A DNA stretch of 64,000 bases from Parcubacteria group bacterium GW2011_GWC1_36_108 (GCA_000991245.1 LBRD01000007.1:37539-101538); one strand, 5' to 3'. Counted from the stretch's first letter, positions 1,920-57,131 are shown. Translations and numbers: made by a program. Notes: generated by a model not told the origin, from the letters alone.

Positions 1920-1968
1920 GCATCGGTTGTGCTATAATAGATAAGTTCATTGAAATTGTGGTATATCA

Positions 1969-2290
1969 AAGTAATTGAGTGGTTACCCTGATTTTTATTG
2001 GGGAGGAAAGTCCGGACATTTAGCTTCAATTTATTTTGGAGTAAAGGTAGCGGGTAACGCCCGTCCGCAGTGATGCGAGAGGTGCGAGCAGAGACGCTTT
2101 GATTCGAAAGAGTCGAGCACCCTTCGGGGTGAGTTCTTATAGTAATATGAGAAGTGAAACGGCCAAATCCTTACCTGAATGCAAGACCGTATTCCAATGC
2201 TTTGCATTGGTTTGTGTCGCTCGAGCTTGTCAGTAATGGCAAGCCCAGATAAATGATCACTAATACAGAATCCGGCTTATAGATTACTTT
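1969..2290 (+). ncRNA. rnpB: RNase P RNA (bacterial type A)
   Basis: 'GGAGGAAAGTCCGGAC' P4 region, 'ACAGAATCCGGCTTA' 3' conserved region, 5'/3' ends pair (aaagtaat / attacttt) as P1. Confidence 0.85.
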
Positions 2291-2330
2291 GATATGCTAT
2301 GAATTTAATGAGATAATTTTATTCAAAAAA

Positions 2331-4283: not shown

Positions 4284-5780
4284 TATTTTTAAAAATGGAT
4301 AAATTGATGAAATCAAGTATAGCGATCCAGTTATTACAACTGGTTCTTTTGACGTTCTGATATTCTTAAGAATGTCAGAACGTTTGTTTTTTATGATGGA
4401 AAAGTTTTTGAAGTTTTGGGATTGCAAAAATGTTGCGATTTCTTGGTTGTCGATTGAACTCCAGTGATTGTCCATTCCTGAGGTTGAAAATTGTGTGAGC
4501 AGGATTTTGTCTGCGAGCGGGATGATATATTTCAGCATTACTTTAAAATCTTTGCCCTTTTTGAAAGCGATAACGAAAGTAAATTTTTGTGAGGGATAAA
4601 TTTTGGCAAGATTATTGCTAAGAGTTTTCATTTTTTGCGGATTGTGCGCACCATCAATAATGAGTGTTTGCCCGCCCGCAACGCTTCGCAAGTGAGCTTG
4701 CTCGCGTAGCGATGCGGGCGGGGCGCCAATCTTGCGAATTTCTAGGCGACCAGGAATTGTGATTTTTTCCAGTGCGCCTCGCAGTTTTGTTTCGTTGATT
4801 TCAATATTATCCCGCTTGGATAATATTGAAAGACAGGCAAGTGCGAGTGAGCAATTTTCGGCTTGATGAATTCCAATCAAGCCTAAATGGATATTTTTTA
4901 AAGATAGTTTTTTTTCTTTGTCATTCCGGGCTTGACCCGGAATCCAGCCGGACTTTATATCTTTAGTTATATTGCTAACTGATGATTTTAATAGGGGCTG
5001 GATTCCCGTTTTCACGGGAATGACAAGGTGAAAATCAAAAATTGTTTCTTGTGTCGTTGAAGAAATGATGGAATAATTTTTATTATTGATGATATGTAAT
5101 ACTGAATTTTTTTCTTCGCATTTATTTTTGATGACGGTTTGTGCTGCAGGCGTTTGTTGTGTGTTGATTGTTGTATTTTGGCTGTTAATTATCCCAGCTT
5201 TCTCAAGGGCGATTTCGGAAATAGTCTTTCCAAGAATTTGAGTGTGATCCAGTCCAAGTTTTGTGATGATGCAAATTTTGTTTTTGTTTGTCACGGTGTT
5301 GGTTGCATCAAGTCTTCCACCAAGCCCTGTTTCCATCACGGCGTAGTCTAGTTTTTCTTTGGCAAACATATAGAAAGCTAGCGCCACATTTATTTCAAAA
5401 AAAGTTGGCATTCCATATGAACTCTTTTCCATTTTCAAAATTGTTGGCAGGATTTGGTTGAAATATTTAAGAATCAGTTTTTCATTCGGCAGTTGATTGT
5501 TGATTTGCATTCTTTCGCGGATATCAAAAATATGTGGAGAAATTGACATTCCAACTGAAAATTCTTGGCTTTGCAGGATATGGCTGGTCAAATGGGCAGT
5601 AGAGCCTTTGCCAGAAGTCCCAGCAATGTGGATAACTTTAATTTTGTTTTGAGGATTTCCGAGCAATTTCATGAAATATTTGGCTCTTTTAAGACCAATA
5701 TCTCCCATAAACAAAGCCTCCCTCGTTGGAATGCGAGTTAGTAAAAAATCTTCAAATTGTTCCAATGTGGTAATTTTCAT
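4281..5780 (-). CDS. folC: folylpolyglutamate synthase / Mur-ligase family protein, with ~90-aa low-complexity insertion containing an in-frame repeat element
   Basis: 'IAGTSGKGST' P-loop, 'LGLDHT', 'IIDGAHNP' Mur ligase motifs; residues ~249-291 are translated repeat element. Confidence 0.75.
   Translation of the reverse strand: MKITTLEQFEDFLLTRIPTREALFMGDIGLKRAKYFMKLLGNPQNKIKVIHIAGTSGKGSTAHLTSHILQSQEFSVGMSISPHIFDIRERMQINNQLPNEKLILKYFNQILPTILKMEKSSYGMPTFFEINVALAFYMFAKEKLDYAVMETGLGGRLDATNTVTNKNKICIITKLGLDHTQILGKTISEIALEKAGIINSQNTTINTQQTPAAQTVIKNKCEEKNSVLHIINNKNYSIISSTTQETIFDFHLVIPVKTGIQPLLKSSVSNITKDIKSGWIPGQARNDKEKKLSLKNIHLGLIGIHQAENCSLALACLSILSKRDNIEINETKLRGALEKITIPGRLEIRKIGAPPASLREQAHLRSVAGGQTLIIDGAHNPQKMKTLSNNLAKIYPSQKFTFVIAFKKGKDFKVMLKYIIPLADKILLTQFSTSGMDNHWSSIDNQEIATFLQSQNFKNFSIIKNKRSDILKNIRTSKEPVVITGSLYLISSIYPFLKI
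4918..5028. repeat. MITE-like palindromic element copy A (double-hairpin ends TGTCATTCC...GGAATCCAGCC / GGCTGGATTCC...GGAATGACA), inside folC in-frame
   Basis: second copy at 29944-30043; terminal modules are inverted copies, each itself a hairpin. Confidence 0.6.
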
Positions 5781-5839
5781 GTCCTGCTATCATAGCGTTT
5801 CAATCAAAAAAAGACAAATTTCGATCGTTATTAATTTTT

Positions 5840-9582: not shown

Positions 9583-10695
9583 ATGCGAATAGTATTAACT
9601 GGTGGAGGCACGGGAGGACATTTAACACCGCTTGTCGCAGTGGCTGACAAATTAAAAGCGAAACTTGGCAGTGAGGCCAATATTCTTTATATTGGTTCGG
9701 GAGCTGAAATGGAAAAAAAAATAATGTCTGAAGAAGGAATTCCAACAAAATTTGTTATTAGTGGAAAAATGCGACGATATTTTTCCTTTCAAAATTTTAT
9801 TGATTTTTTCAAAGTGCCAATTGGCTTTGTGCAATCATTATGGATATTGCTTCGTTTTATGCCGGACGTTATTTTTTCTAAGGGCGGTTATGTGGCAGTG
9901 CCAATTGTGCTGGCAGGTTGGATATATCGTATTCCGATTATGATTCACGAGTCTGACAGTGCACCCGGAATCGCAAATCAATTTTTGTCTAAATTTGCCA
10001 ACAGGATTGCAGTGGCATATCCAAGCGCTGAAGAATATTTTCCTAAGGAAAAAACGGCATTGGTTGGAAATCCAATACGATTTCAAGTAACTCAAGGTGA
10101 TGCCAAAATATTGCGACAAGAAATTGGCTTTACTGAGTCGCGAAAAACACTCTTGATATTGGGTGGTTCACAAGGATCACGGATTATTAATGAAGCAATT
10201 GTTAAAATCCTTCCGCAACTTTTGCAGCATTTTCAAATTATTCATCAAACCGGACAAGAGCATTATGACAATGTTTTGCGTGAAGCGGCTTTTGTTGGTG
10301 TTAAAGCTGGGCACAATGGATATTATGCTGCGCCGTTTATGAATGCCAATAAACTTCGAGATGCTTTTGCCTTAAGCGATTTGGTTATTAGCAGAGCTGG
10401 CGCAACATTTATCACAGAAATAGCAGCAAACGGAAAGCCAGCAATTTTAATTCCAATTTCTGAAAGTGCAAATGATCATCAGCGTATGAACGCTTATGCG
10501 CTTGCACAAATTGGAGCAGCGCTAGTGCTTGAAGAAGCAAATCTTGGAGAACATATTTTGCTTGAAAAAATAAATCATATTTTGAATGACAATGAACTTC
10601 AAATGAATATGGTTGAAAAAATTAAAACTTTTTATCATCCAACTGCTGCAGACGTTATTGCTAATGGTATTATTGAAATCGCTGAGGCAAACTAA
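9583..10695 (+). CDS. murG: undecaprenyldiphospho-muramoylpentapeptide beta-N-acetylglucosaminyltransferase
   Basis: 'MRIVLTGGGTGGHLTPLVAVADKL' N-terminal signature, GT28 C-terminal domain. Confidence 0.9.
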   Translation: MRIVLTGGGTGGHLTPLVAVADKLKAKLGSEANILYIGSGAEMEKKIMSEEGIPTKFVISGKMRRYFSFQNFIDFFKVPIGFVQSLWILLRFMPDVIFSKGGYVAVPIVLAGWIYRIPIMIHESDSAPGIANQFLSKFANRIAVAYPSAEEYFPKEKTALVGNPIRFQVTQGDAKILRQEIGFTESRKTLLILGGSQGSRIINEAIVKILPQLLQHFQIIHQTGQEHYDNVLREAAFVGVKAGHNGYYAAPFMNANKLRDAFALSDLVISRAGATFITEIAANGKPAILIPISESANDHQRMNAYALAQIGAALVLEEANLGEHILLEKINHILNDNELQMNMVEKIKTFYHPTAADVIANGIIEIAEAN

Positions 10696-26828: not shown

Positions 26829-26901
26829 GCCGATGTAGCTCACTTGGTAGAGCAATACACTCGTAACGTATAGGTAGCCGGTTCGATTCCGGCCATCGGC
26901 T
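26829..26901 (+). tRNA. tRNA-Thr (anticodon CGT)
   Basis: cloverleaf: acceptor GCCGATG/CATCGGC, D-arm GCTC..GAGC, anticodon loop CTCGTAA, T-arm GCCGG TTCGATT CCGGC; close to E. coli thrW. Confidence 0.85.
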
Positions 26902-26930
26902 CATTTTATAATTTCTAAATTTGTAATGCG

Positions 26931-31924: not shown

Positions 31925-31927
31925 ATG

Positions 31928-31999
31928 TTGGAGTGCTAGGATTCGAACCTAGGGATGGCGGTACCAGAAACCGCTGCCTTACCGCTTGGCTACACTCCA
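31928..31999 (-). tRNA. tRNA-Gln (anticodon CTG)
   Basis: minus-strand cloverleaf TGGAGTG..GCCAAGCGGTAAGGCA..GCGGT TTCTGGT ACCGC..CTAGG TTCGAAT CCTAG..CACTCCA. Confidence 0.85.
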
Positions 32000-46176: not shown

Positions 46177-46539
46177 ATGCAAAACAAAAAATTTCACGAT
46201 GAATTAAAGAGAAAAATGGATGATTACGCTTTTGGTGTTTATGCTATAACTAAAAAATTTCCTAAGGACGAGATTTATGGCATAACATCACAACTGCGTA
46301 GATCTGCATTATCTGTTATACTGAACTATATAGAAGGATTTGCTAGAACTGGAGATAAGCAATTGAAAAATTTCCTAAATATTTCTTATGGCTCTCTTAA
46401 GGAGTCAAAATATTTACTTTATTTCTCAAAAAGAGAAGGATATATTGAAAATTTGGAATATGAAAAATTAATTAATTTATCTGAAGAAATTGGGGCAATG
46501 CTATGGACAACAATAAATGGTCTCAAGGAAAAATGTTGA
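46177..46539 (+). CDS. four-helix-bundle protein (23S rRNA intervening-sequence protein family)
   Basis: 'DELKRKMDDYAFGVYAITKKFPKDEIYGITSQLRRSALSV...EGFAR' family pattern; start codon embedded in repeat motif. Confidence 0.65.
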   Translation: MQNKKFHDELKRKMDDYAFGVYAITKKFPKDEIYGITSQLRRSALSVILNYIEGFARTGDKQLKNFLNISYGSLKESKYLLYFSKREGYIENLEYEKLINLSEEIGAMLWTTINGLKEKC

Positions 46540-46576
46540 GCCAGAAAGTTGTTATATGTTATATGCTATATGTTAT

Positions 46577-47353
46577 ATGTTGAAACATGAAAACTATAAG
46601 GAACTCATCTGGGCGCTTGCAAAAACTGATTTTAAACTTCGTTATCACGGAAGTGTTTTGGGATATTTGTGGGCGCTGCTCAAGCCGCTGCTGACTTTCG
46701 CGGTGATGAATTTTGTTTTTTCTTCAATGTTTAACCCTCGGGGAACAGGGATGAGTACATATTCATTGCAGTTGTTGGTTGCGCTTATGATGTTTTATTT
46801 TTTCTCTGAAGGAACGACAGCAGGAATGAGTTCACTTTTATCAAAAGCTCAACTTGTAACCAAAATTTATGTCCCACGCTGGACGATTATTATTGCTTCT
46901 ACAATCAACGCAACTCTAATATTCCTGATGAATCTTGTCGTGATTGTTTTTTTCTTTGCGCTTAAAGGTTTCATGCCGAGCATTCCAGCAATCCTTTTGT
47001 TTTTAATGTTTTCAATTTTCATATATATCATCGTTCTTTCTTTTTCACTCATTACTGCACCGCTCTATGTCAAATTTCGCGACCTGGCGATGATCTGGGA
47101 AGTTCTTTTAATGATAATTTTGTACGCGTCGCCGATTATTTATCCTTTAGTAACTTTGCCGGCAGCATATCATAAATTTATTCTGCTTAATCCTCTGGCT
47201 TTTATTATTCACTTTACCAAGGAATCGCTCATCAACAATCATTTTGCTAGCCCTTCACAATATGTAGTGTTTGTCGCCATAGTTTTTGGCGCCTTCGCCC
47301 TAAGCATCTTTTCATATCGTAAATTTATTCCAAAAGTTGCCGAAGAAATCTAG
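46577..47353 (+). CDS. ABC-2 type polysaccharide/teichoic-acid export permease (Wzm/TagG-like)
   Basis: 'ELIWALAKTDFKLRYHGSVLGYLWALLKPL' N-terminal signature, 6 TMs. Confidence 0.8.
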   Translation: MLKHENYKELIWALAKTDFKLRYHGSVLGYLWALLKPLLTFAVMNFVFSSMFNPRGTGMSTYSLQLLVALMMFYFFSEGTTAGMSSLLSKAQLVTKIYVPRWTIIIASTINATLIFLMNLVVIVFFFALKGFMPSIPAILLFLMFSIFIYIIVLSFSLITAPLYVKFRDLAMIWEVLLMIILYASPIIYPLVTLPAAYHKFILLNPLAFIIHFTKESLINNHFASPSQYVVFVAIVFGAFALSIFSYRKFIPKVAEEI

Positions 47354-47393
47354 AAACCATATAACATATAGCATAAAACATATAACACTTGTA

Positions 47394-47431
47394 AAAACAA
47401 AACCTTGTCGCGCTGACAAGGTTTTTGTTTT
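47394..47431. terminator. bidirectional intrinsic terminator (aaccttgtc-loop-gacaaggtt with A/T flanks)
   Basis: read directly after wzm stop. Confidence 0.75.
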
Positions 47432-47436
47432 GTGAT

Positions 47437-47448
47437 ATAATATCAATG
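47437..47448 (+). promoter_or_regulatory. extended -10 promoter element TGTGATATAAT (identical element at 30086-30096 upstream of ftsE)
   Basis: TGn-TATAAT match. Confidence 0.4.
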
Positions 47449-47529
47449 TTGGTAGTTTATAAATATTAATCACCCAGAGTTAAATAATATTTTGATTACA
47501 AAATAATTTAACAGGGTAAATAAAAAAAT

Positions 47530-47805
47530 ATGTTTTCATTAAGTCCAGATATTGAAATAGGAGCCATGCTTTTTTTGATAGGCATCGCTTTTATTTGCTC
47601 ACTCGTGTACGCTTTTTTTGCCAAAGAAAAAATTAAAGCATTAGTGGTTTTTTCAGTGCTTAGTAATATGATTTTATGGTTGTTTATTTTGATAGGATCA
47701 AGACTTTTTTATTTTTATGATATCCTATGGTTCAGAGTTTTTTCTGTTTTCTTTTGGCCGGTTATTAACATCTATTTAATCATTAAAGTGTTTTCAAAAA
47801 AATGA
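47530..47805 (+). CDS. small hypothetical membrane protein (91 aa), translationally coupled (ATGA) to lipase gene
   Basis: 3 TMs; preceded by TTTAACAGGGTAAAT motif. Confidence 0.5.
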   Translation: MFSLSPDIEIGAMLFLIGIAFICSLVYAFFAKEKIKALVVFSVLSNMILWLFILIGSRLFYFYDILWFRVFSVFFWPVINIYLIIKVFSKK

Positions 47806-50768
47806 AAATCAAATTTAAATTGGCGATTGTATCGCTGATTTTTTTTATCACTATCTCCCCAATTTCTTTTCCGGCTCTGCTTGATCATTCTCAAGCAGCT
47901 GATTATGAAGAAATCAGTGAGGATCAAGAGTGGACAATCGACAAAACTGTTGATAAGAACGTGGTTATTAAATCAGGCGTAACTTTGACGATTAAAAAAG
48001 GAGTTACCGTAACCTTTAAGAGCACATATATCGACGTTTATGGCAAAATGATTATTGCCGGCACATTGAAAAGCCCTGTGATATTTAAAAAAGCAGAAGA
48101 TTCGGAAAATTATGCAGTTTCAGTCTGGCAAGGAGGTAATTTGATTATGCGAAATGCTGATTTTAGCGGTGGCGGAGGTTTTTATTTTAATGTTTTGCAG
48201 AATGATTCAATTGTGAATAAAGCATATGCGTATGGAACATATTCTGCCGCAGTTCATGCACGTGGTGGAATTGTGAATATACAGGGAAGTAATTTTCACA
48301 ATAATGATGTTGCAGTGTATGTTGATAGCTCTAGTGCTGGAAAAGTTGTTGTCAGTAGGTCAAAATTTTTGAATAATTCACGGATTGACATTGCCTATGC
48401 CGGATATGGTCAACTAAGCAAGGTAGATGCCAGATATAATTGGTGGGGAAATATAGCGGGTCCATCCAATGTGTGTGTTGATCATAGTGATCCTTTTGGC
48501 GATTGTAAGATTGCAGGATCAGTCGATGTTTCAAATTGGCTCACGAGTGAAAATTTTCACGACCCAGTTGTTATCATTCCGGGAATTTTTGGTTCGCAAA
48601 AAGAAGACGAAATTTGGAAAATAGATCCGATTTTTCATACTTATGATAATTTGATTGATGAATTTAAAAATAATGGATATACGATTGGAAAAGATCTATT
48701 CCTTTTTCCGTATGAATGGCGTGACAGTAATAGTGTGAATGCCACAAAATTGAAATATAGAATAGCTGAAATAAAAACCATTGCCAAATGGCCAAAGGTT
48801 GATGTGGTGGCTCATTCGATGGGCGGTCTTTTGGCGCGCAAATATATTGAATCCAACATATATCAAAATGATGTTGATCAATTGATAACACTTGGAACTC
48901 CTAATTATGGTTCGCCAGAAATTTATCCTCTTTGGGAAGCAGGTGGAGCTATTGGCATGTCTCAGGTTATTATGAAAAAATTTCTTGCACAAGAAATGGA
49001 AGAGGCTGGATACGAGACTATGTTTGAATATATCCGAAAGCGTCCAATTTCTTCAGCTCAAGAGCTTTTGCCAAATTATGAATATTTGTATGACACTGAT
49101 GCAAACAAGCCTTTGATTTATCCAGCTGATTATCCCGTTAATGTTTTTTTGGACAATCTGAACAGTGAAGATAATGTTGAAAAATTAACCAATGTTGAAT
49201 ACATAAAGATTATAGGCAAGGTGGATAGTGATAAAAGTACAATTGTTGGATTTGATATTATTAAAACAGATATGGGAGAATTGTGGCAACACGGTTATCC
49301 TGTTGGTTTTGAAATTCCTTTAATTGGAGATAGAGGTGCTATAAGTGGGGATGGGGATGGAACTGTCCCACTTTCATCAGCCAAGAGTGTTGAAATTCCA
49401 TCAGACAATTATCTTGAATTGAATTTTTCTCATTCTGATTTGCCAACAAAAGCACAAAAAGATGTGTTGGAGACTCTGACAAACGTTCGTCCAACGTCAG
49501 AGGTTACTGACTGGTTAATAAAAAACATATTGCAAACCTGGGCGCACTCTCCAGTAGATATCCAAATCATTTCTCCAACCAACAAAAAATATGGAAAGGA
49601 TTTTGAAAACAACAAAAATTTTGAAAGCATTGACGGTTCATTCTATACTGGCTTTAAAACTGAAAATGAGTTTATCACAATTCCAAATCCTGAAGACGGA
49701 GAATACAAAGTTTTAACACAAGGAACTGAAAATGGAGGAGCGTATCGTATTGAAATGGTTAATCTTTCTCAGAATGAATCCAATGAAGCTTTAGAGTCCA
49801 CAGTTGAAATCGCTGGTTCTTCAATTCCCGATGAAACTGAAGAACTGAGAGTTGAAATTAATGATGGGGAGATAATAGAAAAAAATCAAGATGAAATTGC
49901 GCCAGTGACTGAGTCTTCTATTACTGGGACACAAGGAAGTAATGATTGGTGCACAGGTGACGTTGAATTAACATTGTCTGCAACTGACAACGTTAATGGA
50001 AGTGGCGTCGCAAAAACCGAATATTCTCTGGATGACGGAAAGACTTGGACAACATATGAAAGCCCAGTCGTTTTCTCGCAAGAAGGAATTTTTGATGTTT
50101 CATATCGTTCTGTTGATAAAAAAGACAACATCGAAGAAATAAAAAAAGTCACGATTAAAATTGACAAAACTTCCCCCGAAGCAAAAATGACTTTCAATTC
50201 AATAACTCAAAAACTTGAGGTGCTTGGCACAGATAATCTTTTGCAAAATGTTTCCGTGGAAACGAGAGAACAAACTATTTTCGTCGATAATAATCAAGAC
50301 GAGAAAAAGCAAAAATCCTGGGCTTGGGGATGGTTTCAAAAAGAAAAACCGAAAGAAAAGAAAATAATCGTAACTGCAACATTGACTGATCAAGCAGGGC
50401 ACAAAACTGAACTTGTTTGGGAAAAGAAAAAGAACAAAGACCGACGCATTGACCTTGCAATATCTTCAATTTCATATGATGGTCAAAAGACAAACATTGA
50501 TAAGGGAATTTTGCAATATAAGTGGTTACAAGATTGGAAAAGGAATAAATATCTTATTTTTGCTTCACATCTTAGCACTGAGTCAATGTCATTAGAATCT
50601 CATTATTTTCCAAACAAAAATCAAACGTGGCTTATGGAAAAACCGAATGAAATTGCTGATGATGACAAAAATGACAATGCTGAAAAACGTCCAGTTTGGA
50701 AAAAAATGACGGGAATGATAATCCCGAGTATACTAATAGAAAAGGGTGCTATTAAAATAAGTTATTAA
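47802..50768 (+). CDS. large secreted multidomain protein: N-terminal parallel beta-helix, central alpha/beta-hydrolase lipase/esterase, C-terminal Ig-like domains
   Basis: signal peptide; 'VDVVAHSMGGLLARKYIE' lipase GxSxG; 'TEYSLDDGKTWTTYESPV' Ig-like/chitobiase-C-type motif. Confidence 0.7.
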   Translation: MKIKFKLAIVSLIFFITISPISFPALLDHSQAADYEEISEDQEWTIDKTVDKNVVIKSGVTLTIKKGVTVTFKSTYIDVYGKMIIAGTLKSPVIFKKAEDSENYAVSVWQGGNLIMRNADFSGGGGFYFNVLQNDSIVNKAYAYGTYSAAVHARGGIVNIQGSNFHNNDVAVYVDSSSAGKVVVSRSKFLNNSRIDIAYAGYGQLSKVDARYNWWGNIAGPSNVCVDHSDPFGDCKIAGSVDVSNWLTSENFHDPVVIIPGIFGSQKEDEIWKIDPIFHTYDNLIDEFKNNGYTIGKDLFLFPYEWRDSNSVNATKLKYRIAEIKTIAKWPKVDVVAHSMGGLLARKYIESNIYQNDVDQLITLGTPNYGSPEIYPLWEAGGAIGMSQVIMKKFLAQEMEEAGYETMFEYIRKRPISSAQELLPNYEYLYDTDANKPLIYPADYPVNVFLDNLNSEDNVEKLTNVEYIKIIGKVDSDKSTIVGFDIIKTDMGELWQHGYPVGFEIPLIGDRGAISGDGDGTVPLSSAKSVEIPSDNYLELNFSHSDLPTKAQKDVLETLTNVRPTSEVTDWLIKNILQTWAHSPVDIQIISPTNKKYGKDFENNKNFESIDGSFYTGFKTENEFITIPNPEDGEYKVLTQGTENGGAYRIEMVNLSQNESNEALESTVEIAGSSIPDETEELRVEINDGEIIEKNQDEIAPVTESSITGTQGSNDWCTGDVELTLSATDNVNGSGVAKTEYSLDDGKTWTTYESPVVFSQEGIFDVSYRSVDKKDNIEEIKKVTIKIDKTSPEAKMTFNSITQKLEVLGTDNLLQNVSVETREQTIFVDNNQDEKKQKSWAWGWFQKEKPKEKKIIVTATLTDQAGHKTELVWEKKKNKDRRIDLAISSISYDGQKTNIDKGILQYKWLQDWKRNKYLIFASHLSTESMSLESHYFPNKNQTWLMEKPNEIADDDKNDNAEKRPVWKKMTGMIIPSILIEKGAIKISY

Positions 50769-50793
50769 TTTTAATAAATATTAATAAAAATAT

Positions 50794-51189
50794 ATGACAA
50801 AAAAAAGAGCATTATTTCTTAGTGTTTGCGGGGCAATAATTTTTAGTGTTGCGATAACTATTTCAGTGAAAGGTTTTTGTTTGATAGATTTAATTTGCAG
50901 TAGATCACATGATGATTCGGTGGCATTTATTTTTTTTCCAACAATTACTCTTTTTATTTTCTCTCTCATTACATATCCAATGCAGGATAAAATTTTCCAA
51001 TCTTGGTGGCGTTTTGCTCGCATCTGGATTCCGCTTTCAATGTTAGCAATTTTGATATCACCTTCATATTCGCATAATTTTATTTTTCCAATTGAAAAGG
51101 GAGCCGTAGCATTTTTCTCTTCAGCACTTTTCGTCATAATTAGCCTTGTTCAAATAATTTTGACTTCCCGAAAATTAAAGAGAAGCTAA
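50794..51189 (+). CDS. hypothetical 4-TM membrane protein (131 aa)
   Basis: hydrophobic segments only. Confidence 0.45.
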   Translation: MTKKRALFLSVCGAIIFSVAITISVKGFCLIDLICSRSHDDSVAFIFFPTITLFIFSLITYPMQDKIFQSWWRFARIWIPLSMLAILISPSYSHNFIFPIEKGAVAFFSSALFVIISLVQIILTSRKLKRS

Positions 51190-51301
51190 TAAAAGTAAGG
51201 CGTAATCTTTCGCGTAGTGTTGCGCTGTTTCCATTATTTTTTTTAAAAGTAGTTTTAGCTGTGAGGTAATATAGATATAGCAGCAATGGAATTATATTAA
51301 C

Positions 51302-51342
51302 TTGGCGCCAATAGAATGCGGTCGTCAGCTACTGGCGCCGGG
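51302..51342. repeat. GC-rich palindromic repeat TTGGCGCCA-N-AATGCGGTCGTCAG-N-TGGCGCCGGG, copy 1
   Basis: three near-identical copies (51302, 52036, 52144) in an AT-rich background. Confidence 0.7.
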
Positions 51343-51390
51343 TAGTGTTTAATATAATATAAAAGAGATAATTTAATTGATAAAAATATT

Positions 51391-51957
51391 GTGAACAAGG
51401 GTAAGAAAAAATTTAAAAGTCCAATAAAGAAAAAGGCACTGTTGCTTCTTGCAGGTGGTGTTGCTCTTGGTCTTGCACGAAATCCTAGGTCGCAGCAATA
51501 TATATTTAAAACACTAAAAAGGGATTGGAAGGAAATAAATAAAAAATATTTATATAAAATTGTCAAAGAATTTAGAGAGGAAAGGTTGGTTGATTATATT
51601 GAGAAAGCGGACGGTAGCGTGAAGATTGTGCTTACTGAAAAAGGAAAAAATATTATTCTTAATTTTGATATAGATAGAATAAAAATAAAAAAACCAATTC
51701 GTTGGGATAAAAAATGGCGATTTGTATTTTTTGATATACCTGAAAAACGAAGATCCGAAAGAAATGTTTTGAGAAATAAATTAAAAGATTTGAAATTTTA
51801 TGAAATTCAAAAATCAATTTTCGTGCATCCTTATCCGTGTTTAGATGAAGTTAATTTTGTTATTGAATATTTTAATTTGAGAAATATGGTTCGTTATGGG
51901 GAAGTGACAAATATTTCAAATGAGGAGGAATTAAAATTGAAATGTAATCTTTTTTAA
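51391..51957 (+). CDS. PaaX-like transcriptional regulator (short wHTH + PaaX core domain), GTG start
   Basis: 'WDKKWRFVFFDIPEKRRSERNVLRNKLKDLKFYEIQKSIFVHPYP' parallels PaaX 'WDGKWLLLLSEGLDK..LIWQGFGAL..S.MASP'; N-terminal wHTH-like 'LVDYIEKADGSVKIVLTEKGK'. Confidence 0.5.
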   Translation: MNKGKKKFKSPIKKKALLLLAGGVALGLARNPRSQQYIFKTLKRDWKEINKKYLYKIVKEFREERLVDYIEKADGSVKIVLTEKGKNIILNFDIDRIKIKKPIRWDKKWRFVFFDIPEKRRSERNVLRNKLKDLKFYEIQKSIFVHPYPCLDEVNFVIEYFNLRNMVRYGEVTNISNEEELKLKCNLF

Positions 51958-52035
51958 AAAGGCACTTTTCTTTTTAGCTCGTTTATGTTTTGCTTGCTCG
52001 TGTTTCTTGTTTGCTGCGGCACTATTTTATTTTAA

Positions 52036-52076
52036 TTGGCGCCACTTTTGTGCGGTCGTCAGTTAGTGGCGCCAGG
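52036..52076. repeat. GC-rich palindromic repeat, copy 2
   Basis: ttggcgccacttttgtgcggtcgtcagttagtggcgccagg. Confidence 0.7.
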
Positions 52077-52143
52077 CTTATTATGGTGAAATAGTATTTT
52101 AAATTGCAAAAAAATACATATCTTTTATAATGTATTTATTTTA

Positions 52144-52184
52144 TTGGCGCCAGTAGAATGCGGTCGTCAGTTAGTGGCGCCGGG
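52144..52184. repeat. GC-rich palindromic repeat, copy 3
   Basis: ttggcgccagtagaatgcggtcgtcagttagtggcgccggg. Confidence 0.7.
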
Positions 52185-52273
52185 CTTCTTGATGGTGGAG
52201 CTTATAAAAAGCTTGAATTATTGGAAAAATAAATAATAAAAGCTAAATCCAGAAATTTCGGAATTTGTTAAGG

Positions 52274-52357
52274 CAGTAACCTGTGCAAAAATTGCACATG
52301 TTACTGTGTATGGAAAAGTTAGAAAAATCAACCTGTTCCATTTTGGAACAGGTTGAT
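52274..52357. promoter_or_regulatory. two long hairpins (cagtaacctgtgcaa-aaa-ttgcacatgttactg; atcaacctgttcca-ttt-tggaacaggttgat) in a non-coding segment
   Basis: 13-15-bp stems read directly. Confidence 0.45.
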
Positions 52358-52535
52358 GTAGATAAGAAAACAAGAAAGAATAATTTAGTAAAGTGTTACC
52401 TATGTGCTCATCTAGTTAAAATACTTGACAAGATCTTAAAAATACTGTACAAAAAGGGATGGTAGTATGGTAATTTTAACAATTCAAGAATCTGCAAATT
52501 TGCAGAAAAAATAACCCAGAAAAAGGAGAAAAAAG

Positions 52536-53009
52536 ATGCCAGTTCCAATGAAAAAGTCGTCAGATGAAGTTTTTCGGTCAAACGGTGAGGATTTGGAGTA
52601 CAGAAGTGCTCAAGGTTCGCCTCATGTCACAGGGGAGATTGAAAAACCAGTTCCCAGTTGTAAACAGAGTATTTTTTTGAAGATAAAGGGTGAAGCTGGC
52701 GGAAGACAGGCCTTGGGCGCGCGAATCTCGGAAATTTTGCTGAAAATTTTCGGCAAAACAAACCAAAAATGTAAAATTGAGGATCTATCCATCTTGGATG
52801 GACAATATCTCTCGGAGTTTTTTGAAGTATTGACTAAGATCTTTAAGGAAGGACGCGTGGAAGATGTGGAGCCACTCAACCTTTTCTTGTCAGGGTTTAG
52901 TGAACCAGACCTTTCCAGATTGCAGAACCTGTCAACTCATGACAAAATCGGCAATAACATTCTGAGTGAGGGTATAGGCAACTCACTAAAAACCAAAAGA
53001 AGGAGATAG
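52536..53009 (+). CDS. hypothetical protein (157 aa), visibly GC-richer than surroundings
   Basis: strong RBS AAAAGGAGAAAAAAGATG; terminator 53043-53075 downstream. Confidence 0.5.
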   Translation: MPVPMKKSSDEVFRSNGEDLEYRSAQGSPHVTGEIEKPVPSCKQSIFLKIKGEAGGRQALGARISEILLKIFGKTNQKCKIEDLSILDGQYLSEFFEVLTKIFKEGRVEDVEPLNLFLSGFSEPDLSRLQNLSTHDKIGNNILSEGIGNSLKTKRRR

Positions 53010-53042
53010 CCTGGGGGATGAGAATTAATATGAAGGGGGAAC

Positions 53043-53075
53043 GAATTTTCGTTCTCCCTTTTTTCTTGTCCTTTA
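53043..53075 (+). terminator. intrinsic terminator gggggaacgaa-loop-ttcgttctccc + T6
   Basis: read directly. Confidence 0.7.
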
Positions 53076-53127
53076 TGTTGTATCTTTAGCTTGCAAAGTA
53101 GCTCTTTTTGTTATATGATGGGATTGT

Positions 53128-53415
53128 ATGGTTACAGAAATATACATAAATAGGATCAAGGAAATTTTACAAAAACATCTCACTAATAATGAGAAAGTTT
53201 TTATTTTTGGCTCAAGTGTGGACGGTGAAAAGTTTGGTGATGTGGATTTGGCAGTAGTTTCTGAGCAATCAGTGGATGAAAGAATAATGCGCCAAATTAG
53301 AGAGGATTTGGAGGAATCAACACTGCCGTATAAATTTGATTTGGTGGATATTAATCAAACTAATGATCCATTTCGCACCCGCGTGCTGAATGGTCCAAAA
53401 TTATGGATTATCTAG
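53128..53415 (+). CDS. minimal nucleotidyltransferase (MNT) antitoxin of a HepT/MNT pair
   Basis: 'FGSSVDGEKFGDVDLAV' GSx9DxD motif. Confidence 0.75.
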   Translation: MVTEIYINRIKEILQKHLTNNEKVFIFGSSVDGEKFGDVDLAVVSEQSVDERIMRQIREDLEESTLPYKFDLVDINQTNDPFRTRVLNGPKLWII

Positions 53416-53798
53416 AAGAAAAACATACACAACTTGAGCAAGCATTAAAAAAATGGAAGCAAGTGCTGGATATGCCTTTTTCGGATATAAATAGAGACGC
53501 ATCAATTCAGAGATATGAATTTTCTTTTGAATTGCTTTGGAAAGTAGTTAAAAAATATCTCAAAGAGATTGAAGGTTTTGAATGTAATTCACCTAAATCA
53601 TGTTTTCGAGAAATTCGTATGACATTGGATTTAAATGAATCTGACATTGAAATATGCATAAGTATGACGGAGGATAGAAATTTGTCAGTGCACACATATT
53701 CAGAGGAGATGGCGAACAATTTATATGCAAAACTGCCAGAATATGCCAGAGTTTCAAAATTAATTGCAAAAAAAATAAAAGAAAAAGCAAAAATATAA
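53403..53798 (+). CDS. HepT-like (DUF86/HEPN) toxin
   Basis: 'RNLSVHTY' Rx4HxY HEPN motif; 13-nt overlap with MNT gene. Confidence 0.75.
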   Translation: MDYLEEKHTQLEQALKKWKQVLDMPFSDINRDASIQRYEFSFELLWKVVKKYLKEIEGFECNSPKSCFREIRMTLDLNESDIEICISMTEDRNLSVHTYSEEMANNLYAKLPEYARVSKLIAKKIKEKAKI

Positions 53799-53870
53799 AA
53801 AATTTACAATGACTAAGGAAGTTCAAAATTTATTTATTATTTAGTTAACGTGTTGACGGGTTAACGAGTT

Positions 53871-53939
53871 ATGAAAATACAAAAATTTGATTCTATTGTG
53901 AAATTTTCTGAATTGGAACGCTTTATTGATCAAAAATAA
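53871..53939 (+). pseudogene. duplicated internal fragment of the wzt/tagH ABC ATPase gene (matches 56214-56274)
   Basis: ~53/56 nt identical to 'KKFDSIVKFSELERFIDQK' coding segment of 55833 gene. Confidence 0.6.
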
Positions 53940-53993
53940 AAAAACTTTTAACTTTTAATTATGGCGAATTTGCCATAATTACCAGCTTAAATT

Positions 53994-54023
53994 AAAAAAA
54001 CCAGTTTGATACTGGTTTTTTTG
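53994..54023. terminator. bidirectional terminator aaaaaaaccagt-ttgat-actggttttttt
   Basis: read directly. Confidence 0.6.
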
Positions 54024-54037
54024 CTACCCCCTGTTCG

Positions 54038-54232
54038 TTATTTACAAGAGTTGGTTTGAAGTTCGCCAAATTTACGCTCATATTCCTTCAAGAGATCTTT
54101 TTGGTCTTGTGCTGAAAGATCTGCAGCCTTCCGTATGATTTTTTGCTGCTCTGCCACAGGAAGATCAAAGAAATTAATTTTTTCTTTGTTCGTATCTTTT
54201 TTGCTGATGTGTGATATGATTTTTTTTAACAT
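54038..54232 (-). CDS. small hypothetical protein (64 aa)
   Basis: ORF only. Confidence 0.3.
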   Translation of the reverse strand: MLKKIISHISKKDTNKEKINFFDLPVAEQQKIIRKAADLSAQDQKDLLKEYERKFGELQTNSCK

Positions 54233-54520
54233 AATATTGTATTTAATGATTCTTTATTATATATAATTTTGATGTAATTGTCAATATTGCAATCAATATT
54301 TTTGCTTCCTCTGCTATTTGTATTTCATCTGTTTGTATCATGCTTTGATTTTACCATTTTTTCATTTTCAGTACAATGCATGCCCAATGCGTTAAGCGTT
54401 GTATTTTTGCATTTAAAATGATAAAATTGATTAGTAAAATATACTCAATTAATATTGATTTAAATAATCACATAAAAATAAAAATAGATATCAAAAACTA
54501 AGATAAAAAGAAAAAAATAT

Positions 54521-55081
54521 ATGCACATATTTGTTGATGAATCTGGAATACATAAAGAAACTGGAAAATCTTCAGTTGCGTTGGTTTATGTTTTAACAGA
54601 AGATGTAAAATTTCTTAATGAAGCCATAATTAGGGCTGAAAAATCATTAAGAATAAAAAATTTTCATTGGACTGATTGTTCGTGGAAAATAAGGATTGAA
54701 TTTTTCAAGCTTATATTGAAGGAAAATTTTTCTGTAAGAGTTTCAATTATACGAAATCCTTTCAGTAAAAACGATTTTGAAGAGTCAATCAAGCTGCTGT
54801 TGTTGGAAAAGAAATTTAAAAAAGTTGTAATAGATGGCAAGAAGCCAAAATGGTATGCATTAAAAATGAAAAAGCTGTTGCGAGATTCTGGAATTTCTGT
54901 AAAAAAAATAAATATGGCCAATGACGAAGCGCATCCATGTTTGAGGTTGGCTGATGCTTATGCTGGTTTGTCTAGGGCATACTGGGAAGGGAGGGAAAAT
55001 AAGAATGTGGATAGTTTGTATGAAATAGCTCGGAAGAAAATAAAAACCACCCAACTGGTGGATGGTCAGACAGTCCAGTAG
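54521..55081 (+). CDS. DUF3800-family protein
   Basis: 'MHIFVDESGIHKE' N-terminal DESG motif characteristic of DUF3800. Confidence 0.55.
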   Translation: MHIFVDESGIHKETGKSSVALVYVLTEDVKFLNEAIIRAEKSLRIKNFHWTDCSWKIRIEFFKLILKENFSVRVSIIRNPFSKNDFEESIKLLLLEKKFKKVVIDGKKPKWYALKMKKLLRDSGISVKKINMANDEAHPCLRLADAYAGLSRAYWEGRENKNVDSLYEIARKKIKTTQLVDGQTVQ

Positions 55082-55218
55082 CTATTGCTAGCTTTCTCGC
55101 ACGGAGATTTGTCCTGGGTATCTAGTTATATTCAAAGCATAGCATAAAGACTAAAATACGTCAATAGCGCTATGCATCATTATATACGGATTATATTAGA
55201 AAAATATTTCAAAAAACA

Positions 55219-55243
55219 AAAACCCCCGTTTATAGGGGGAATA
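55219..55243 (-). terminator. hairpin ccccc-gtttata-ggggg with U-run only on minus-strand reading
   Basis: orientation implies minus-strand transcription from the 55.25-55.8 kb non-coding segment. Confidence 0.35.
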
Positions 55244-55832
55244 GCCTATCCCTTTCGAGAAACCCGCCATACGGTCGGTGTTCGGCTAACATTTGACTTT
55301 ATTATAGACAATTTTTACAATGCTGTCAATGGTTAATACTCCTTCCGCTATTATTAATTTCAAAAATGAAATGTTACGGATAGAGTGGCTATTTTAAGCC
55401 ATTTTTTATTATATAATTGTGTTGCAAATTTACCCATATAATGATAAACTTTATTAGTGAAAAAAAGTGAAGAAGATGTACTTTTTTGTTTATTTGAATG
55501 ATGCAAGGGCAATTTTCCACATTTCTTTTTCCCGCAAAAAGAAACCTGGAGGAAAGAAAAGCTCACACCTGATGAAGATACTGTGGCAAAAACTTCGCTC
55601 TTCGCTAGAATTTACACTTCGCTCGTAGTCTGCTGACTCTCGCTACGTTTCAAAATTCCTTAACGCTCATCACTCGTTTTTTGCCTACGTACTTCATATG
55701 GTGCAAAGGGAATGCGGAATGCGAATACTGAAGAATACAGAGAGGGGTAGAGAGAATGGAAGAATTAGTTTAAAATTAAATAATTGAAAAATTAAGATTT
55801 GAATCGAAATTCAAAATTCAAAATTCGAAATT

Positions 55833-57131
55833 ATGAACAACGACATCGCGATCAGCGTTAAGAATGTGTCAAAGACCTTCAAGATACCACATGAAAAAAT
55901 CTCCTCTCTTCGTGGGGCGGCGGTTTCGATTTTTTCGAAAAAGAGGGGTTATGAAGAATTTAAGGCGTTGGATGATGTTAGTTTTGAGGTGAAGAAGGGG
56001 GAGTTTTTTGGGATTATTGGGAGAAATGGGAGTGGAAAAAGCACACTTTTGAAAATTCTGGCGGGAATATATCAGACTGACAAGGGAAGTGTGGAAATCG
56101 ACGGGCGGATTTCGCCGTTTTTGGAATTGGGGATTGGGTTTAATCCAGAACTTAGTGGTCGGGATAATGTGTATCTTAATGCAACTGTATTGGGACTGAC
56201 GAAAAAAGAAATCGATAAAAAATTTGATTCAATTGTGAAATTTTCTGAATTGGAAAGATTTATTGATCAAAAACTCAAAAATTATTCCTCCGGCATGCAA
56301 GTGCGACTAGCCTTTTCCGTTTCAATCCATGCCAACCGCGAGATTCTGCTCATGGATGAAGTGCTGGCGGTTGGAGATTCGAATTTCCAGAGTAAATGTT
56401 TGGAAGAATTTAATAAATATCGGGACGCGGGAAGAACTGTTATTATTGTTACTCATGATATTTCAGTAGTTCAGAGATATTGTGATCGAGCGATGCTTCT
56501 TAGAAATGGCAAAATAATGAAAATGGGAAAAGCAGAAGATGTGGCAAACGCATATGTTTATGATAATATGTCAGATGAAGAAAAAAGGTTTACTGATGAA
56601 GAAAGGCAAAAAATAATTGATGCCGAAAAAAATCTTGAAAATTTAAAAGGGAAAGAATTGGAGGATGAAAAAAGAAGAATTAAAGAGGAAAAAATAAAAC
56701 AAGCAGAAGAAAGAAAAAATAAAGTTGTGGAGATTATGAAGGTTGAACTTCTGGACAAAGACGGAATAGATAAGAATGTTTTTGAGACAGGGGAATCGCT
56801 CGATATTAAAATTAATTTTGAGGTGTACAAAGAAATTGAAAATTTAAATTTTGGGATAGGTCTGCATGCAATTTCAGGCGGACAAGTTTTTGGATATAAT
56901 ACTCAAATGGATGAGATAATTGTTGACAAAAATAAAAAAAGTATAACACTGCATTTTGATAAACTGCCAATTTTAAAGGGTGAATACACCATGAATATTG
57001 CATGCTGGAATGATATTGTTCAAGATCCATATGATCTCAAAATGGGTTATAGAATAGTGAGAATGTTTTCTAAAGGTTTAAAGAATAATTACGGTGGTTT
57101 TTGTGATATTGAGCATGCTTGGAAGAATTAA
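55833..57131 (+). CDS. ABC transporter ATP-binding protein Wzt/TagH-like with C-terminal extension (coiled coil + beta-rich domain)
   Basis: 'GRNGSGKSTLLKILAG', 'YSSGMQVRLAFSV' signature. Confidence 0.85.
   Translation: MNNDIAISVKNVSKTFKIPHEKISSLRGAAVSIFSKKRGYEEFKALDDVSFEVKKGEFFGIIGRNGSGKSTLLKILAGIYQTDKGSVEIDGRISPFLELGIGFNPELSGRDNVYLNATVLGLTKKEIDKKFDSIVKFSELERFIDQKLKNYSSGMQVRLAFSVSIHANREILLMDEVLAVGDSNFQSKCLEEFNKYRDAGRTVIIVTHDISVVQRYCDRAMLLRNGKIMKMGKAEDVANAYVYDNMSDEEKRFTDEERQKIIDAEKNLENLKGKELEDEKRRIKEEKIKQAEERKNKVVEIMKVELLDKDGIDKNVFETGESLDIKINFEVYKEIENLNFGIGLHAISGGQVFGYNTQMDEIIVDKNKKSITLHFDKLPILKGEYTMNIACWNDIVQDPYDLKMGYRIVRMFSKGLKNNYGGFCDIEHAWKN

What the first reader, a model, noticed from the sequence alone, without database searches (positions are those of the whole stretch)
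51302..52184. Three GC-rich 41-bp palindromic repeats bracketing a PaaX-like regulator gene
TTGGCGCCA..AATGCGGTCGTCAG..TGGCGCCGGG occurs three times (51302, 52036, 52144). Each has two GGCGCC half-sites ~29 bp apart, which is the geometry of PaaX operators (two 6-bp inverted half-sites ~27 bp apart). The copies sit upstream and downstream of an ORF whose C-terminal half parallels the PaaX core ('WDKKW..FVFFDIPE..'). GGCGCC-rich 40-mers are conspicuous in this AT-rich genome. The conserved central 14-mer is longer than a simple operator needs, so these could instead be recombination sites or structured RNA.
Basis: partly seen in the sequence, partly recalled or inferred. Interest (0 to 1): 0.7.

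Follow-up and report, generated by a model that had tools for sequence, protein, structure and literature searches.

The report
Palindromes bracketing a mini-PaaX regulator gene
Three copies of a 41-bp GC-rich palindrome flank a small PaaX/Cas2-like DNA-binding protein gene in a Moranbacteria (CPR) genome. The same gene-between-two-palindromes layout holds across this large, apparently undescribed protein family, so the palindromes are most likely the protein's own binding sites.

Summary
Three same-strand copies of TTGGCGCCA-N6-TGCGGTCGTC-N6-TGGCGCC lie at 51302, 52036 and 52144, one before and two after a 188-aa ORF; none is expected by chance.

The ORF is a winged-helix plus Cas2-like (Pfam PaaX_M) protein. 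It lacks PaaX's ligand domain, so it is not a PaaX orthologue and not a CRISPR Cas2.

In 67 of 81 non-redundant homologous loci from CPR bacteria, the gene is bracketed by two copies of a lineage-specific 30-45 bp palindrome. The arms covary; the centre is conserved and dyad-like (usually CGATCG; TGCGGTCGTC in Moranbacteria).

The genes look leaderless. The upstream palindrome is centred about 46 bp before the start.

Best reading: these are cognate double-stranded DNA operators of an autoregulated "mini-PaaX", one at each end of the gene.

Three things remain unexplained by a plain operator:
- compensatory arm changes;
- a G·T over A·C excess;
- in Moranbacteria relatives, REP-like spread to unrelated loci, including in-frame inside folC.

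An RNA/single-strand hairpin role or a REP/RAYT-like role therefore remains open. No Rfam family or paper was found.

The parts
51302..51342 (+). Palindrome copy 1, upstream of the gene: TTGGCGCCAATAGAATGCGGTCGTCAGCTACTGGCGCCGGG
   Evidence: Covariance model score 54.4 bits. It ends 48 nt before the GTG start. Homologous loci carry a copy in the same position.
51353..51358 (+). Candidate -10 hexamer TATAAT. It would place the transcription start near 51365, about 43 bp from the palindrome axis. Inferred only.
   Evidence: Read directly from the sequence. The simple promoter scan did not call it. Family-wide, the palindrome axis lies a median of about 46 bp from the start.
51391..51957 (+). 188-aa 'mini-PaaX': an N-terminal HxlR/MarR-like winged helix (about residues 11-90) plus a C-terminal Cas2-like/PaaX_M ferredoxin-fold domain (104-178).
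   Evidence: Pfam PF20803, E 1.7e-20. AlphaFold2 pLDDT is above 90 over residues 101-188. Foldseek matches PaaX 8a39, Cas2 and VapD. It is 100% identical to a protein of Ca. Moranbacteria GW2011_GWC2_37.
52036..52076 (+). Palindrome copy 2, first copy downstream of the gene.
   Evidence: Covariance model score 51.5 bits. It starts 78 nt after the stop codon.
52144..52184 (+). Palindrome copy 3, second copy downstream of the gene.
   Evidence: Covariance model score 50.9 bits. A promoter-like TTGCAA-16-TATAAT at 52104-52131 ends 12 nt before it.
52536..53009 (+). 157-aa protein of unknown function. It is a syntenic downstream neighbour in several Moranbacteria loci; whether it belongs to the system is uncertain.
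   Evidence: Homologues follow the mini-PaaX gene in L002, L030/L003 and L049. No Pfam or PADLOC hit.

Best explanation
The three palindromes are the cognate binding sites of the protein encoded between them. That protein is a two-domain 'mini-PaaX': a winged-helix DNA-binding domain plus a Cas2-like domain that probably mediates dimerisation.

A dimer most likely binds the double-stranded palindrome through its dyad-like centre (TGCGGTCGTC here; CGATCG-type in most relatives) and the invariant CCA/TGG that flank it. The upstream site lies over or just upstream of the gene's own promoter, giving autoregulation as in PaaX. The downstream site or sites, tied to the gene's 3' end, would act as auxiliary operators, through looping or as roadblocks/insulators.

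Shown:
- the protein's domain make-up;
- the family-wide bracketing of the gene by lineage-specific palindromes;
- the promoter-proximal position of the upstream site.

Inferred:
- actual binding;
- double-stranded rather than hairpin recognition;
- repression and looping.

The covarying arms imply that intrastrand pairing also matters, or that the arms are kept symmetric by quasipalindrome template-switch mutation. That part is unexplained.
For: 1. Protein. PaaX_M scores E 1.7e-20. Foldseek's best hit is E. coli PaaX, over both domains. The N-terminus matches DNA-binding HxlR/MarR winged helices such as QsrR and YodB.

2. Linkage.
- Close homologues carry the same element before and after the gene.
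- Homologues at 40-50% identity carry different palindromes in the same two positions.
- The upstream/downstream flank match exceeds the 95th percentile of a mismatched-locus control in 67 of 81 non-redundant loci.

3. Tight placement. The upstream copy ends a median of 30 nt before the start. The downstream copy begins a median of 28 nt after the stop, whether the next gene is co-oriented (34 loci) or convergent (31 loci).

4. Promoter context.
- A strong -10 ends 6-8 nt before the start codon in 29 of 87 loci.
- A Shine-Dalgarno-like 4-mer is present in only 2 of 87.
- The mRNA is therefore leaderless, and the upstream palindrome is normally not in the gene's own transcript.
- The palindrome axis lies a median of about 46 bp upstream, over the -35 zone.

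5. The conserved centre is dyad-like: CGATCG, CGGCCG, and CGGTCG or its complement CGACCG. Asymmetric centres occur in either orientation. This fits a symmetric dimer on duplex DNA better than loop-specific RNA recognition.

6. PaaX itself binds an inverted repeat about 39 bp long and represses its own promoter (PMC9493321).
Against: - The arms vary freely between close relatives yet stay complementary. Between the two copies of a single locus there are 34 double Watson-Crick compensatory changes across 34 loci. In the Moranbacteria alignment 12 of 14 stem pairs covary, with a score of 0.398 against 0.19 in shuffles. A plain operator does not need this.
- On the gene's strand, G·T mismatches outnumber A·C mismatches: 91 to 46 family-wide, and 38 to 14 in Moranbacteria. 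This hints at a single-strand (RNA or top-strand DNA) fold.
- In Moranbacteria all copies share one orientation. They sit 3' of co-oriented genes in 40 cases against 4, and 10 lie between convergent genes.
- Solo copies in related genomes flank functionally unrelated genes. They also sit in-frame inside folC. This looks like insertion, not regulon evolution.
- Palindrome length varies from 22 to 74 bp, so a fixed PaaX-like half-site spacing does not hold.
- In this window the axis lies about 70 bp from the annotated GTG start.
- No binding experiment exists.
Confidence: 0.5

Rival explanations
1. The elements work as transcribed hairpins, or as top-strand single-stranded DNA hairpins. They would be 3'-end, insulator or processing elements on the sense strand. 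The conserved apical sequence would be recognised, and perhaps cut, by the winged-helix/Cas2-like protein. Cas2 and VapD are RNases with an RRM-like fold.
For: - Stem covariation.
- G·T excess over A·C on the sense strand.
- Fixed orientation in Moranbacteria and placement just 3' of co-oriented genes, 40 against 4, including convergent gene pairs.
- Good predicted hairpins.
- The Cas2-type β1 Asp (D115) and the QxS motif are invariant.
- Some family members look like bidirectional terminators, for example L156 AAAAAATCCCGCGATCGCGGGATTTTTT.
Against: - The gene is leaderless, so the upstream copy is outside its own mRNA.
- Asymmetric centres are flipped in some loci (L129/L150, L130, L153), which would change the loop sequence.
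- A T-tract follows only 5 of 70 stems, so these are not canonical intrinsic terminators.
- The folC copies are antisense to the mRNA.
- The G·T excess could arise from strand-biased mutation, and the orientation bias from gene-strand bias.
- No Rfam family matches.
Confidence: 0.2
2. A REP/RAYT-like or site-specific-recombination system. The palindromes would be DNA hairpin or cruciform sites that are copied or inserted around the genome. The flanked winged-helix/Cas2-like gene would encode the protein that maintains or mobilises them. Alternatively, gene plus palindromes would form a small cassette with att-like ends.
For: - The gene is flanked on both sides by its own palindrome, and the palindrome type is lineage-specific.
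- Moranbacteria genomes hold 5 or more further copies on other contigs. Arms are uniform within a genome and differ between genomes.
- The copy in folC is an in-frame, element-sized insertion. It lies at the same site in two genomes, each with its own arm type, and this window's folC carries other palindromic insertions there.
- L019 holds four copies in tandem.
- A diverged wzt fragment ends 27 nt before the upstream copy in L004.
Against: - There is no HUH/Y1, integrase or transposase domain.
- Outside Moranbacteria only the two flanking copies are usually seen: no extras within ±3 kb in 61 of 72 loci, and none within the up to 10 kb of flank retrieved on each side for L159-L161.
- The same upstream/downstream difference, CACGAG/CTCGTG against CATGAG/CTCATG, is kept in L078 and L159 and partly in L098. 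The two copies are therefore old and vertically inherited, not recently transposed.
- This window has no copies away from the gene.
Confidence: 0.15
3. Generic GC-rich terminators or REP elements that merely happen to lie next to this gene, with no functional link to the protein.
For: Solo copies exist at unrelated loci in related genomes.
Against: - Bracketing recurs in 67 of 81 loci with entirely different palindrome sequences across the family.
- The conserved centre tracks the protein family.
- Positions relative to the start and stop codons are tight.
- T-tracts are mostly absent.
Confidence: 0.03

Closest known systems
PaaX repressor and its operators (E. coli, Pseudomonas)
   Same: Winged helix plus Cas2-like middle domain. 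A long inverted-repeat site: TGATTC-N27-GAATCA, about 39 bp, against 41 bp here. A site at its own promoter, giving autoregulation (PMC9493321).
   Different: No C-terminal phenylacetyl-CoA-binding domain and no paa genes nearby. It scores far below the equivalog cut-off. The conserved part of the site is the centre, not the outer hexamers. A second copy (here also a third) lies at the gene's 3' end. The arms covary.
REP elements with their RAYT genes (REPIN-RAYT systems)
   Same: A gene seen once in each retrieved locus, flanked by its own short palindromes. The palindromes are lineage-specific. In Moranbacteria there are extra extragenic copies, mostly 3' of genes.
   Different: The protein is not an HUH/Y1 transposase. 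Flanking copies are usually direct rather than inverted. Copy number is tiny, and outside Moranbacteria usually just two.
Cas2 / VapD ferredoxin-fold nucleases
   Same: The fold and the β1 'DI' Asp motif. Some relatives pass NCBI's cas2 cut-off and are named Cas2 in GenBank.
   Different: Fused to a winged helix. No cas1 gene and no regularly spaced array; the spacings are 734 and 108 nt. The window protein scores below the Cas2 cut-offs.
Rickettsia palindromic elements and Correia-type miniature elements
   Same: Small palindromic units found in-frame inside a protein-coding gene (folC in L018/L052) and in intergenic 3' regions. Some arm types carry an outward extended -10, TGGTATAAT.
   Different: Only 40 bp long. 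A strictly conserved centre. Physically and evolutionarily tied to one protein family.
Repressors with operators on both sides of their gene that loop DNA (lambda CI OR/OL, GalR OE/OI)
   Same: Two near-identical sites bracket the regulator gene, about 650-740 bp apart. This comparison rests on my own knowledge of those systems; it was not tested here.
   Different: Oligomeric state and looping are untested. The downstream site sits immediately after the stop codon across the family.

Membership tests
PaaX (phenylacetate catabolon repressor, TIGR02277) | Winged helix plus Cas2-like middle domain (PF20803) | tested here: met
   PF20803 E 1.7e-20 over residues 104-178. Foldseek match to 8a39, E 1.6e-4, across both domains.
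PaaX (phenylacetate catabolon repressor, TIGR02277) | C-terminal ligand-binding domain, about 300 aa in total, and a score above the equivalog cut-off | tested here: not met
   188 aa with no PaaX_C hit. TIGR02277 scores 23.8 bits against a cut-off of 264.55.
PaaX (phenylacetate catabolon repressor, TIGR02277) | Genomic association with paa catabolic genes | tested here: not met
   Neighbours are an LCAT-like protein, a membrane protein, MNT/HEPN and DUF3800 here. In relatives they are infB, recA, trpS and alaS.
PaaX (phenylacetate catabolon repressor, TIGR02277) | Operator made of two 6-bp inverted half-sites about 27 bp apart at its own promoter | tested here: inconclusive
   Overall size and promoter-proximal position are similar. 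However, the outer arms are not conserved among close relatives, and palindrome length varies from 22 to 74 bp.
CRISPR Cas2 | Cas2 fold with the β1 Asp | tested here: met
   The model shows βαββαβ at pLDDT above 90. It matches Cas2 structures. D115 is invariant.
CRISPR Cas2 | Score above curated cut-offs, an adjacent cas1, and a regularly spaced repeat array | tested here: not met
   PF09827 scores 23.5 against 23.8; TIGR01573 scores 19.9 against 24.5. Repeat spacing is 734 and 108 nt. No Cas1 family appears in any called neighbour.
REP/RAYT | Gene flanked by its own palindromic repeats, with further extragenic copies | tested here: inconclusive
   Flanking is met. Dispersed copies occur in related Moranbacteria, but not in this 64-kb window and rarely in other lineages.
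REP/RAYT | HUH/Y1 transposase protein | tested here: not met
   Only PaaX_M and Cas2 hits are found. No invariant HUH motif or Tyr appears in the alignment.
Intrinsic (Rho-independent) terminator | GC-rich stem followed by a T-tract | tested here: not met
   The terminator scan did not call the three copies. A T-rich tail follows 5 of 70 family palindromes, against a 3% background.
Any Rfam RNA family | Covariance-model hit | tested here: not met
   No hit at the elements at gathering score or at E up to 10. None in 15 related loci.
Integron attC cassette site | R''/R' core sites (GTTRRRY) and an integron integrase nearby | tested here: not met
   The arms read TTGGCGCCA/TGGCGCCGG with no GTTRRRY core. 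No integrase family appears among the neighbours.
Type III toxin-antitoxin (ToxIN-like) | Tandem short RNA repeats immediately upstream of an endoribonuclease gene | tested here: not met
   There is one copy upstream and non-tandem copies downstream. The gene is leaderless.

The most novel reading that the evidence does not exclude
A Cas1-independent partnership between a Cas2-family protein and palindromes. The winged-helix/Cas2-like protein would recognise DNA or RNA hairpins whose tip carries the conserved centre. It would maintain, process or disperse these palindromes, in the way RAYTs act on REPs. Moranbacteria would be a lineage where the sites have begun to proliferate, even inserting in-frame into folC. 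If true, this would be a new class of hairpin-element system built on the Cas2 fold. It might also bear on how palindromic repeats and Cas2 came together in CRISPR evolution.
Probability: 0.1. Interest if true: 0.9.

Novelty: new variant of a known kind. Interest (0 to 1): 0.6.

Why it matters
CPR/Patescibacteria are a large group of bacteria that are mostly uncultured, and to my knowledge their gene regulation is little characterised.

This analysis gives a large protein family (at least 751 clusters at 50% identity) a concrete, testable cis-element. It also predicts that these genes are leaderless and autoregulated. It shows that GenBank's 'CRISPR-associated endonuclease Cas2' name for many members is probably wrong.

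The covarying arms and the REP-like spread in Moranbacteria raise a further possibility: a Cas2-fold protein that works on hairpin elements. The protein is small and the site is 40 bp, so simple biochemistry could settle the question.

Tried and rejected
- Rfam. Searches of the whole window at gathering score, the locus at E up to 10, and 15 related loci found nothing at the elements.
- tRNA-like origin. ARAGORN finds only two unrelated tRNAs.
- CRISPR mini-array. Rejected: spacing is irregular and there is no cas1.
- Viral origin. A scan of viral contigs gave 11 hits, all without stems and so by chance.
- Defence-system membership. PADLOC gives only weak Cas2 hits.
- Regulon hypothesis for the solo Moranbacteria copies. 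Ten of the flanking genes were scanned against Pfam and gave unrelated families: Bro-N, GT1, Mur ligase, TrmB, HAD, PNPOx, patatin, RlmN.
- Canonical terminator. T-tracts are mostly absent.
- 5'-UTR riboregulator of the gene. Rejected for most of the family, because the -10 sits 6-8 nt from the start codon and there is no Shine-Dalgarno sequence.
- Weak covariance-model hit at 10093-10137. It lies inside a coding gene and lacks the core, so it is chance.
- Literature. Searches for PaaX+Cas2, PaaX+Patescibacteria, 'Cas2-like'+'winged helix', and CPR+palindromic found nothing relevant.
- Correlating recognition-helix residues with centre type. No clear pattern was visible by eye.

Full report
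**1. The observation**

The window comes from a Candidatus Moranbacteria (CPR) genome. The ORF product is 100% identical to a protein of GW2011_GWC2_37. Local GC content is 0.32.

Three same-strand copies of a 41-bp element lie at 51302-51342, 52036-52076 and 52144-52184. A degenerate pattern for the element matches exactly three times in the window, against 0.00 expected. Six of the window's ten GGCGCC sites fall inside these copies.

Each copy is a hairpin-forming quasi-palindrome. Predicted energies are -22.7, -20.8 and -18.3 kcal/mol, with z-scores of -3.3, -4.0 and -1.6. A covariance model built later from 56 related copies finds only these three in the 64 kb (51-54 bits). The next hit, at 23 bits, is the reverse strand of copy 2.

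Copy 1 ends 48 nt before ORF 51391-51957. Copies 2 and 3 follow its stop codon by 78 and 186 nt.

**2. The protein**

The 188-aa ORF hits Pfam PaaX_M, the 'PaaX central Cas2-like domain', at E 1.7e-20. It hits Cas2 just below the cut-off.

The AlphaFold2 model has a confident βαββαβ C-terminal domain (pLDDT above 90) and a less confident three-helix-plus-wing N-terminal domain. Foldseek ranks E. coli PaaX (8a39) first, over both domains. Cas2 proteins, VapD and Rv0674 follow. A profile search of PDB sequences links the N-terminus to HxlR/MarR winged helices such as QsrR and YodB.

It is not a PaaX orthologue. There is no C-terminal ligand domain, TIGR02277 scores 23.8 bits against a cut-off of 264.55, and no paa genes are nearby.

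It is not a CRISPR Cas2 either. It scores below the cut-offs, there is no cas1, and there is no regular array. Several relatives do pass NCBI's cas2 threshold and are deposited as 'Cas2'.

The family is large: 751 clusters at 50% identity with E ≤ 1e-30. Invariant residues include W105, D106, W109, D115 (the Cas2 β1 Asp), P117, R124, S142, P147 and C150.

**3. The link between gene and palindrome**

- Close homologues at 72-75% identity (L002, L003, L004) carry the same element once upstream and one to four times downstream, on the gene's strand (L002 has three). CCA-N6-TGCGGTCGTC-N6-TGG is invariant. The arms differ: GGTACC, GGCGCC/GGTGCC, or TATACC/GGTATA.
- Homologues at 43-47% identity in other CPR lineages (L075-L078) are also bracketed, but by quite different palindromes.
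- The metagenome scan returned 80 loci; together with loci fetched earlier, 81 were non-redundant and had adequate flanks. In 67 of these 81, the best match between the gene's upstream and downstream flanks beats the 95th percentile of a mismatched-locus control. The median score is 20 against 8.
- The shared element is a palindrome with a median length of about 37 bp (range 22-74). It has lineage-specific arms and a conserved centre. The centre is most often CGATCG (ACGATCGT, GCGATCGC or CCGATCGG). Less often it is CGGTCG/CGACCG, CGGCCG, CCATGG, CTATAG or CTGGAG.
- The Moranbacteria centre TGCGGTCGTC shares the same axis and is a derived CGGTCG variant.
- Placement is tight. The upstream copy ends a median of 30 nt before the start. 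The downstream copy begins a median of 28 nt after the stop.
- The downstream neighbour is co-oriented in 34 loci and convergent in 31. The 3' copy therefore belongs to this gene, not to the next one.
- Neighbouring genes are unrelated housekeeping genes: infB, ftsK/recA, rnj/trpS and mnmA/alaS.

**4. Evidence for DNA-level (operator) function**

- A strong -10 hexamer ends 6-8 nt before the start codon in 29 of 87 loci, against about 2 per position elsewhere. Several are extended -10 elements.
- Only 2 of 87 loci have a Shine-Dalgarno-like 4-mer. The genes therefore appear leaderless, and the upstream palindrome lies outside the gene's own mRNA.
- The palindrome axis lies a median of about 46 bp upstream of the start. 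Eighteen of 42 values fall between 39 and 50 bp, which is over the -35 zone. In several loci the 3' arm itself supplies TGGTATAAT.
- The centres are dyad-like, and asymmetric centres occur in both orientations. This fits a symmetric dimer on duplex DNA.
- PaaX binds TGATTC-N27-GAATCA and represses its own promoter (PMC9493321).

**5. What a plain operator does not explain**

- Compensatory arm changes. Between the two copies of a single locus, across 34 loci, there are 34 double Watson-Crick compensatory changes and 5 more involving G·T. This compares with 105 single changes that break a pair. I estimate roughly three times as many compensatory changes as independent change would give.
- Clear examples are L078, L113, L121, L137 and L159. 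The same upstream/downstream difference, CACGAG/CTCGTG against CATGAG/CTCATG, recurs in L078 and L159 and partly in L098. The two copies are therefore old and vertically inherited.
- Covariation in Moranbacteria. In the 56-sequence alignment 12 of 14 stem pairs covary. The covariation score is 0.398, against 0.19 in shuffles (0 of 500 reach it) and at most 0.147 in slid controls. The copies are related to one another, which inflates this figure.
- Strand asymmetry. G·T mismatches outnumber A·C mismatches on the sense strand, 91 to 46 and 38 to 14. Strand-biased mutation could contribute.
- Arms are not read. Relatives whose winged-helix regions are 68-76% identical carry completely different arms. 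The protein probably does not read arm sequence.
- A non-selective source of symmetry is possible: quasipalindrome template-switch correction. This rests on my own knowledge and was not tested.
- T-tracts are rare, in 5 of 70 stems, so these are not canonical terminators.

**6. Moranbacteria-specific spread**

A pattern scan of species-representative genomes gave 58 loci. About 27 are true hairpins, all in Moraniibacteriota or other CPR assemblies; the rest lack stems.

Besides the copies around the gene, single genomes carry further copies on other contigs. Bin-153, UBA12142, STA_10 and Kiruna_bin-03293 each show 5-6 copies in total matching the exact pattern. Arms are uniform within a genome, although UBA12142 has two types.

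These solo copies are mostly intergenic. Over all 58 copies counted, gene-flanking ones included, the upstream gene is co-oriented in 40 cases against 4, and 10 copies lie between convergent genes. Ten of the flanking genes were scanned against Pfam and share no functional theme.

Two copies lie in-frame and antisense inside folC, at the same site in two genomes. Each has its own genome's arm type. This window's folC (4287-5786, minus strand) carries two other GC-rich palindromic in-frame insertions, one at that site and one further downstream in the protein.

This pattern looks like element insertion, in the manner of REP or Rickettsia palindromic elements. Outside Moranbacteria, extra copies are rare. 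There are none within ±3 kb in 61 of 72 loci, and none in the up to 10 kb of flank retrieved on each side of L159-L161. This window has none away from the gene.

**7. Verdict**

- the protein is a two-domain 'mini-PaaX', not PaaX;
- the conserved recognition element is the centre, not the GGCGCC arms;
- the architecture, one palindrome at each end of a leaderless gene, is a property of the whole family.

I rate the models as follows:
- double-stranded DNA operator with autoregulation: 0.5;
- RNA or single-strand hairpin role: 0.2;
- REP/RAYT-like or recombination role: 0.15.

I found no Rfam family and no paper describing this.

Noticed in passing
window 55064-55129 (-): Rfam DUF3800-II RNA (68.4 bits; gathering score 43.2). 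It lies on the opposite strand, overlapping the 3' end of a DUF3800 ORF at 54521-55081 (+).
   Followed up: no
window 4287-5786 (-), especially 4671-4722 and about 4920-5030: The FolC-like gene carries two GC-rich palindromic in-frame insertions (encoding GAPPASLREQAHLRSVAGG and a segment of about 35 aa). The 4920-5030 insertion lies at the site where the folC genes of L018 and L052 carry the TGCGGTCGTC hairpin. This loop seems to be a hotspot that tolerates palindromic insertions.
   Followed up: partly
window 46517-57131: The ABC-transporter genes wzm (46517-47353) and wzt (55833-57131) are separated by about 8.5 kb. The intervening stretch holds a 988-aa LCAT/lipase-like protein, a 131-aa membrane protein, the mini-PaaX unit, an MNT/HEPN pair (53128-53798) and DUF3800. 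The LCAT-like protein, membrane protein and mini-PaaX gene are syntenic in L002, L030, L049, L067 and L161.
   Followed up: partly
L004 2271-2877: A diverged fragment of the 5' part of wzt (78% identity over 632 nt to the intact gene 1.9 kb downstream) ends 27 nt before the upstream hairpin. L023 and L059 show the same arrangement.
   Followed up: partly
L019 659-1006: Four hairpin copies in tandem, spaced 93, 114 and 93 nt. This looks like a duplicated two-hairpin unit of the kind found downstream of the gene in L071.
   Followed up: no
L022, L048, L056, L061, L073 (all from MAG UBA12142): One genome carries two arm types of the element, GGCGCC and TATACC. None of the retrieved loci contains the mini-PaaX gene.
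   Followed up: no
relatives P0003, P0020, P0047, P0080, P0086, P0087, P0102, P0109: GenBank names these winged-helix/PaaX_M proteins 'CRISPR-associated endonuclease Cas2'. P0087 and P0102, the two of these scanned, pass the TIGR01573 cut-off on the β1-α1 segment alone. The name is probably wrong.
   Followed up: partly
window 52420-52470 and L003 2290-2345: A promoter-like block, TTGACAA-ATCTTAAAAA...TGTA-AAA, is conserved upstream of the small downstream gene family (ORF157 and relatives).
   Followed up: no
family-wide (L075-L161): The palindrome centres coincide with classic restriction or methylation palindromes: CGATCG, GCGATCGC, CCATGG, CGGCCG and CTGGAG. No restriction-modification genes were seen next to them. 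The significance is unknown.
   Followed up: no
window 1967-2295 (+), 26829-26902 (+), 31927-31999 (-): RNase P RNA (class A, 130 bits), tRNA-Thr(CGU) and tRNA-Gln(CUG). These are ordinary housekeeping RNAs.
   Followed up: no
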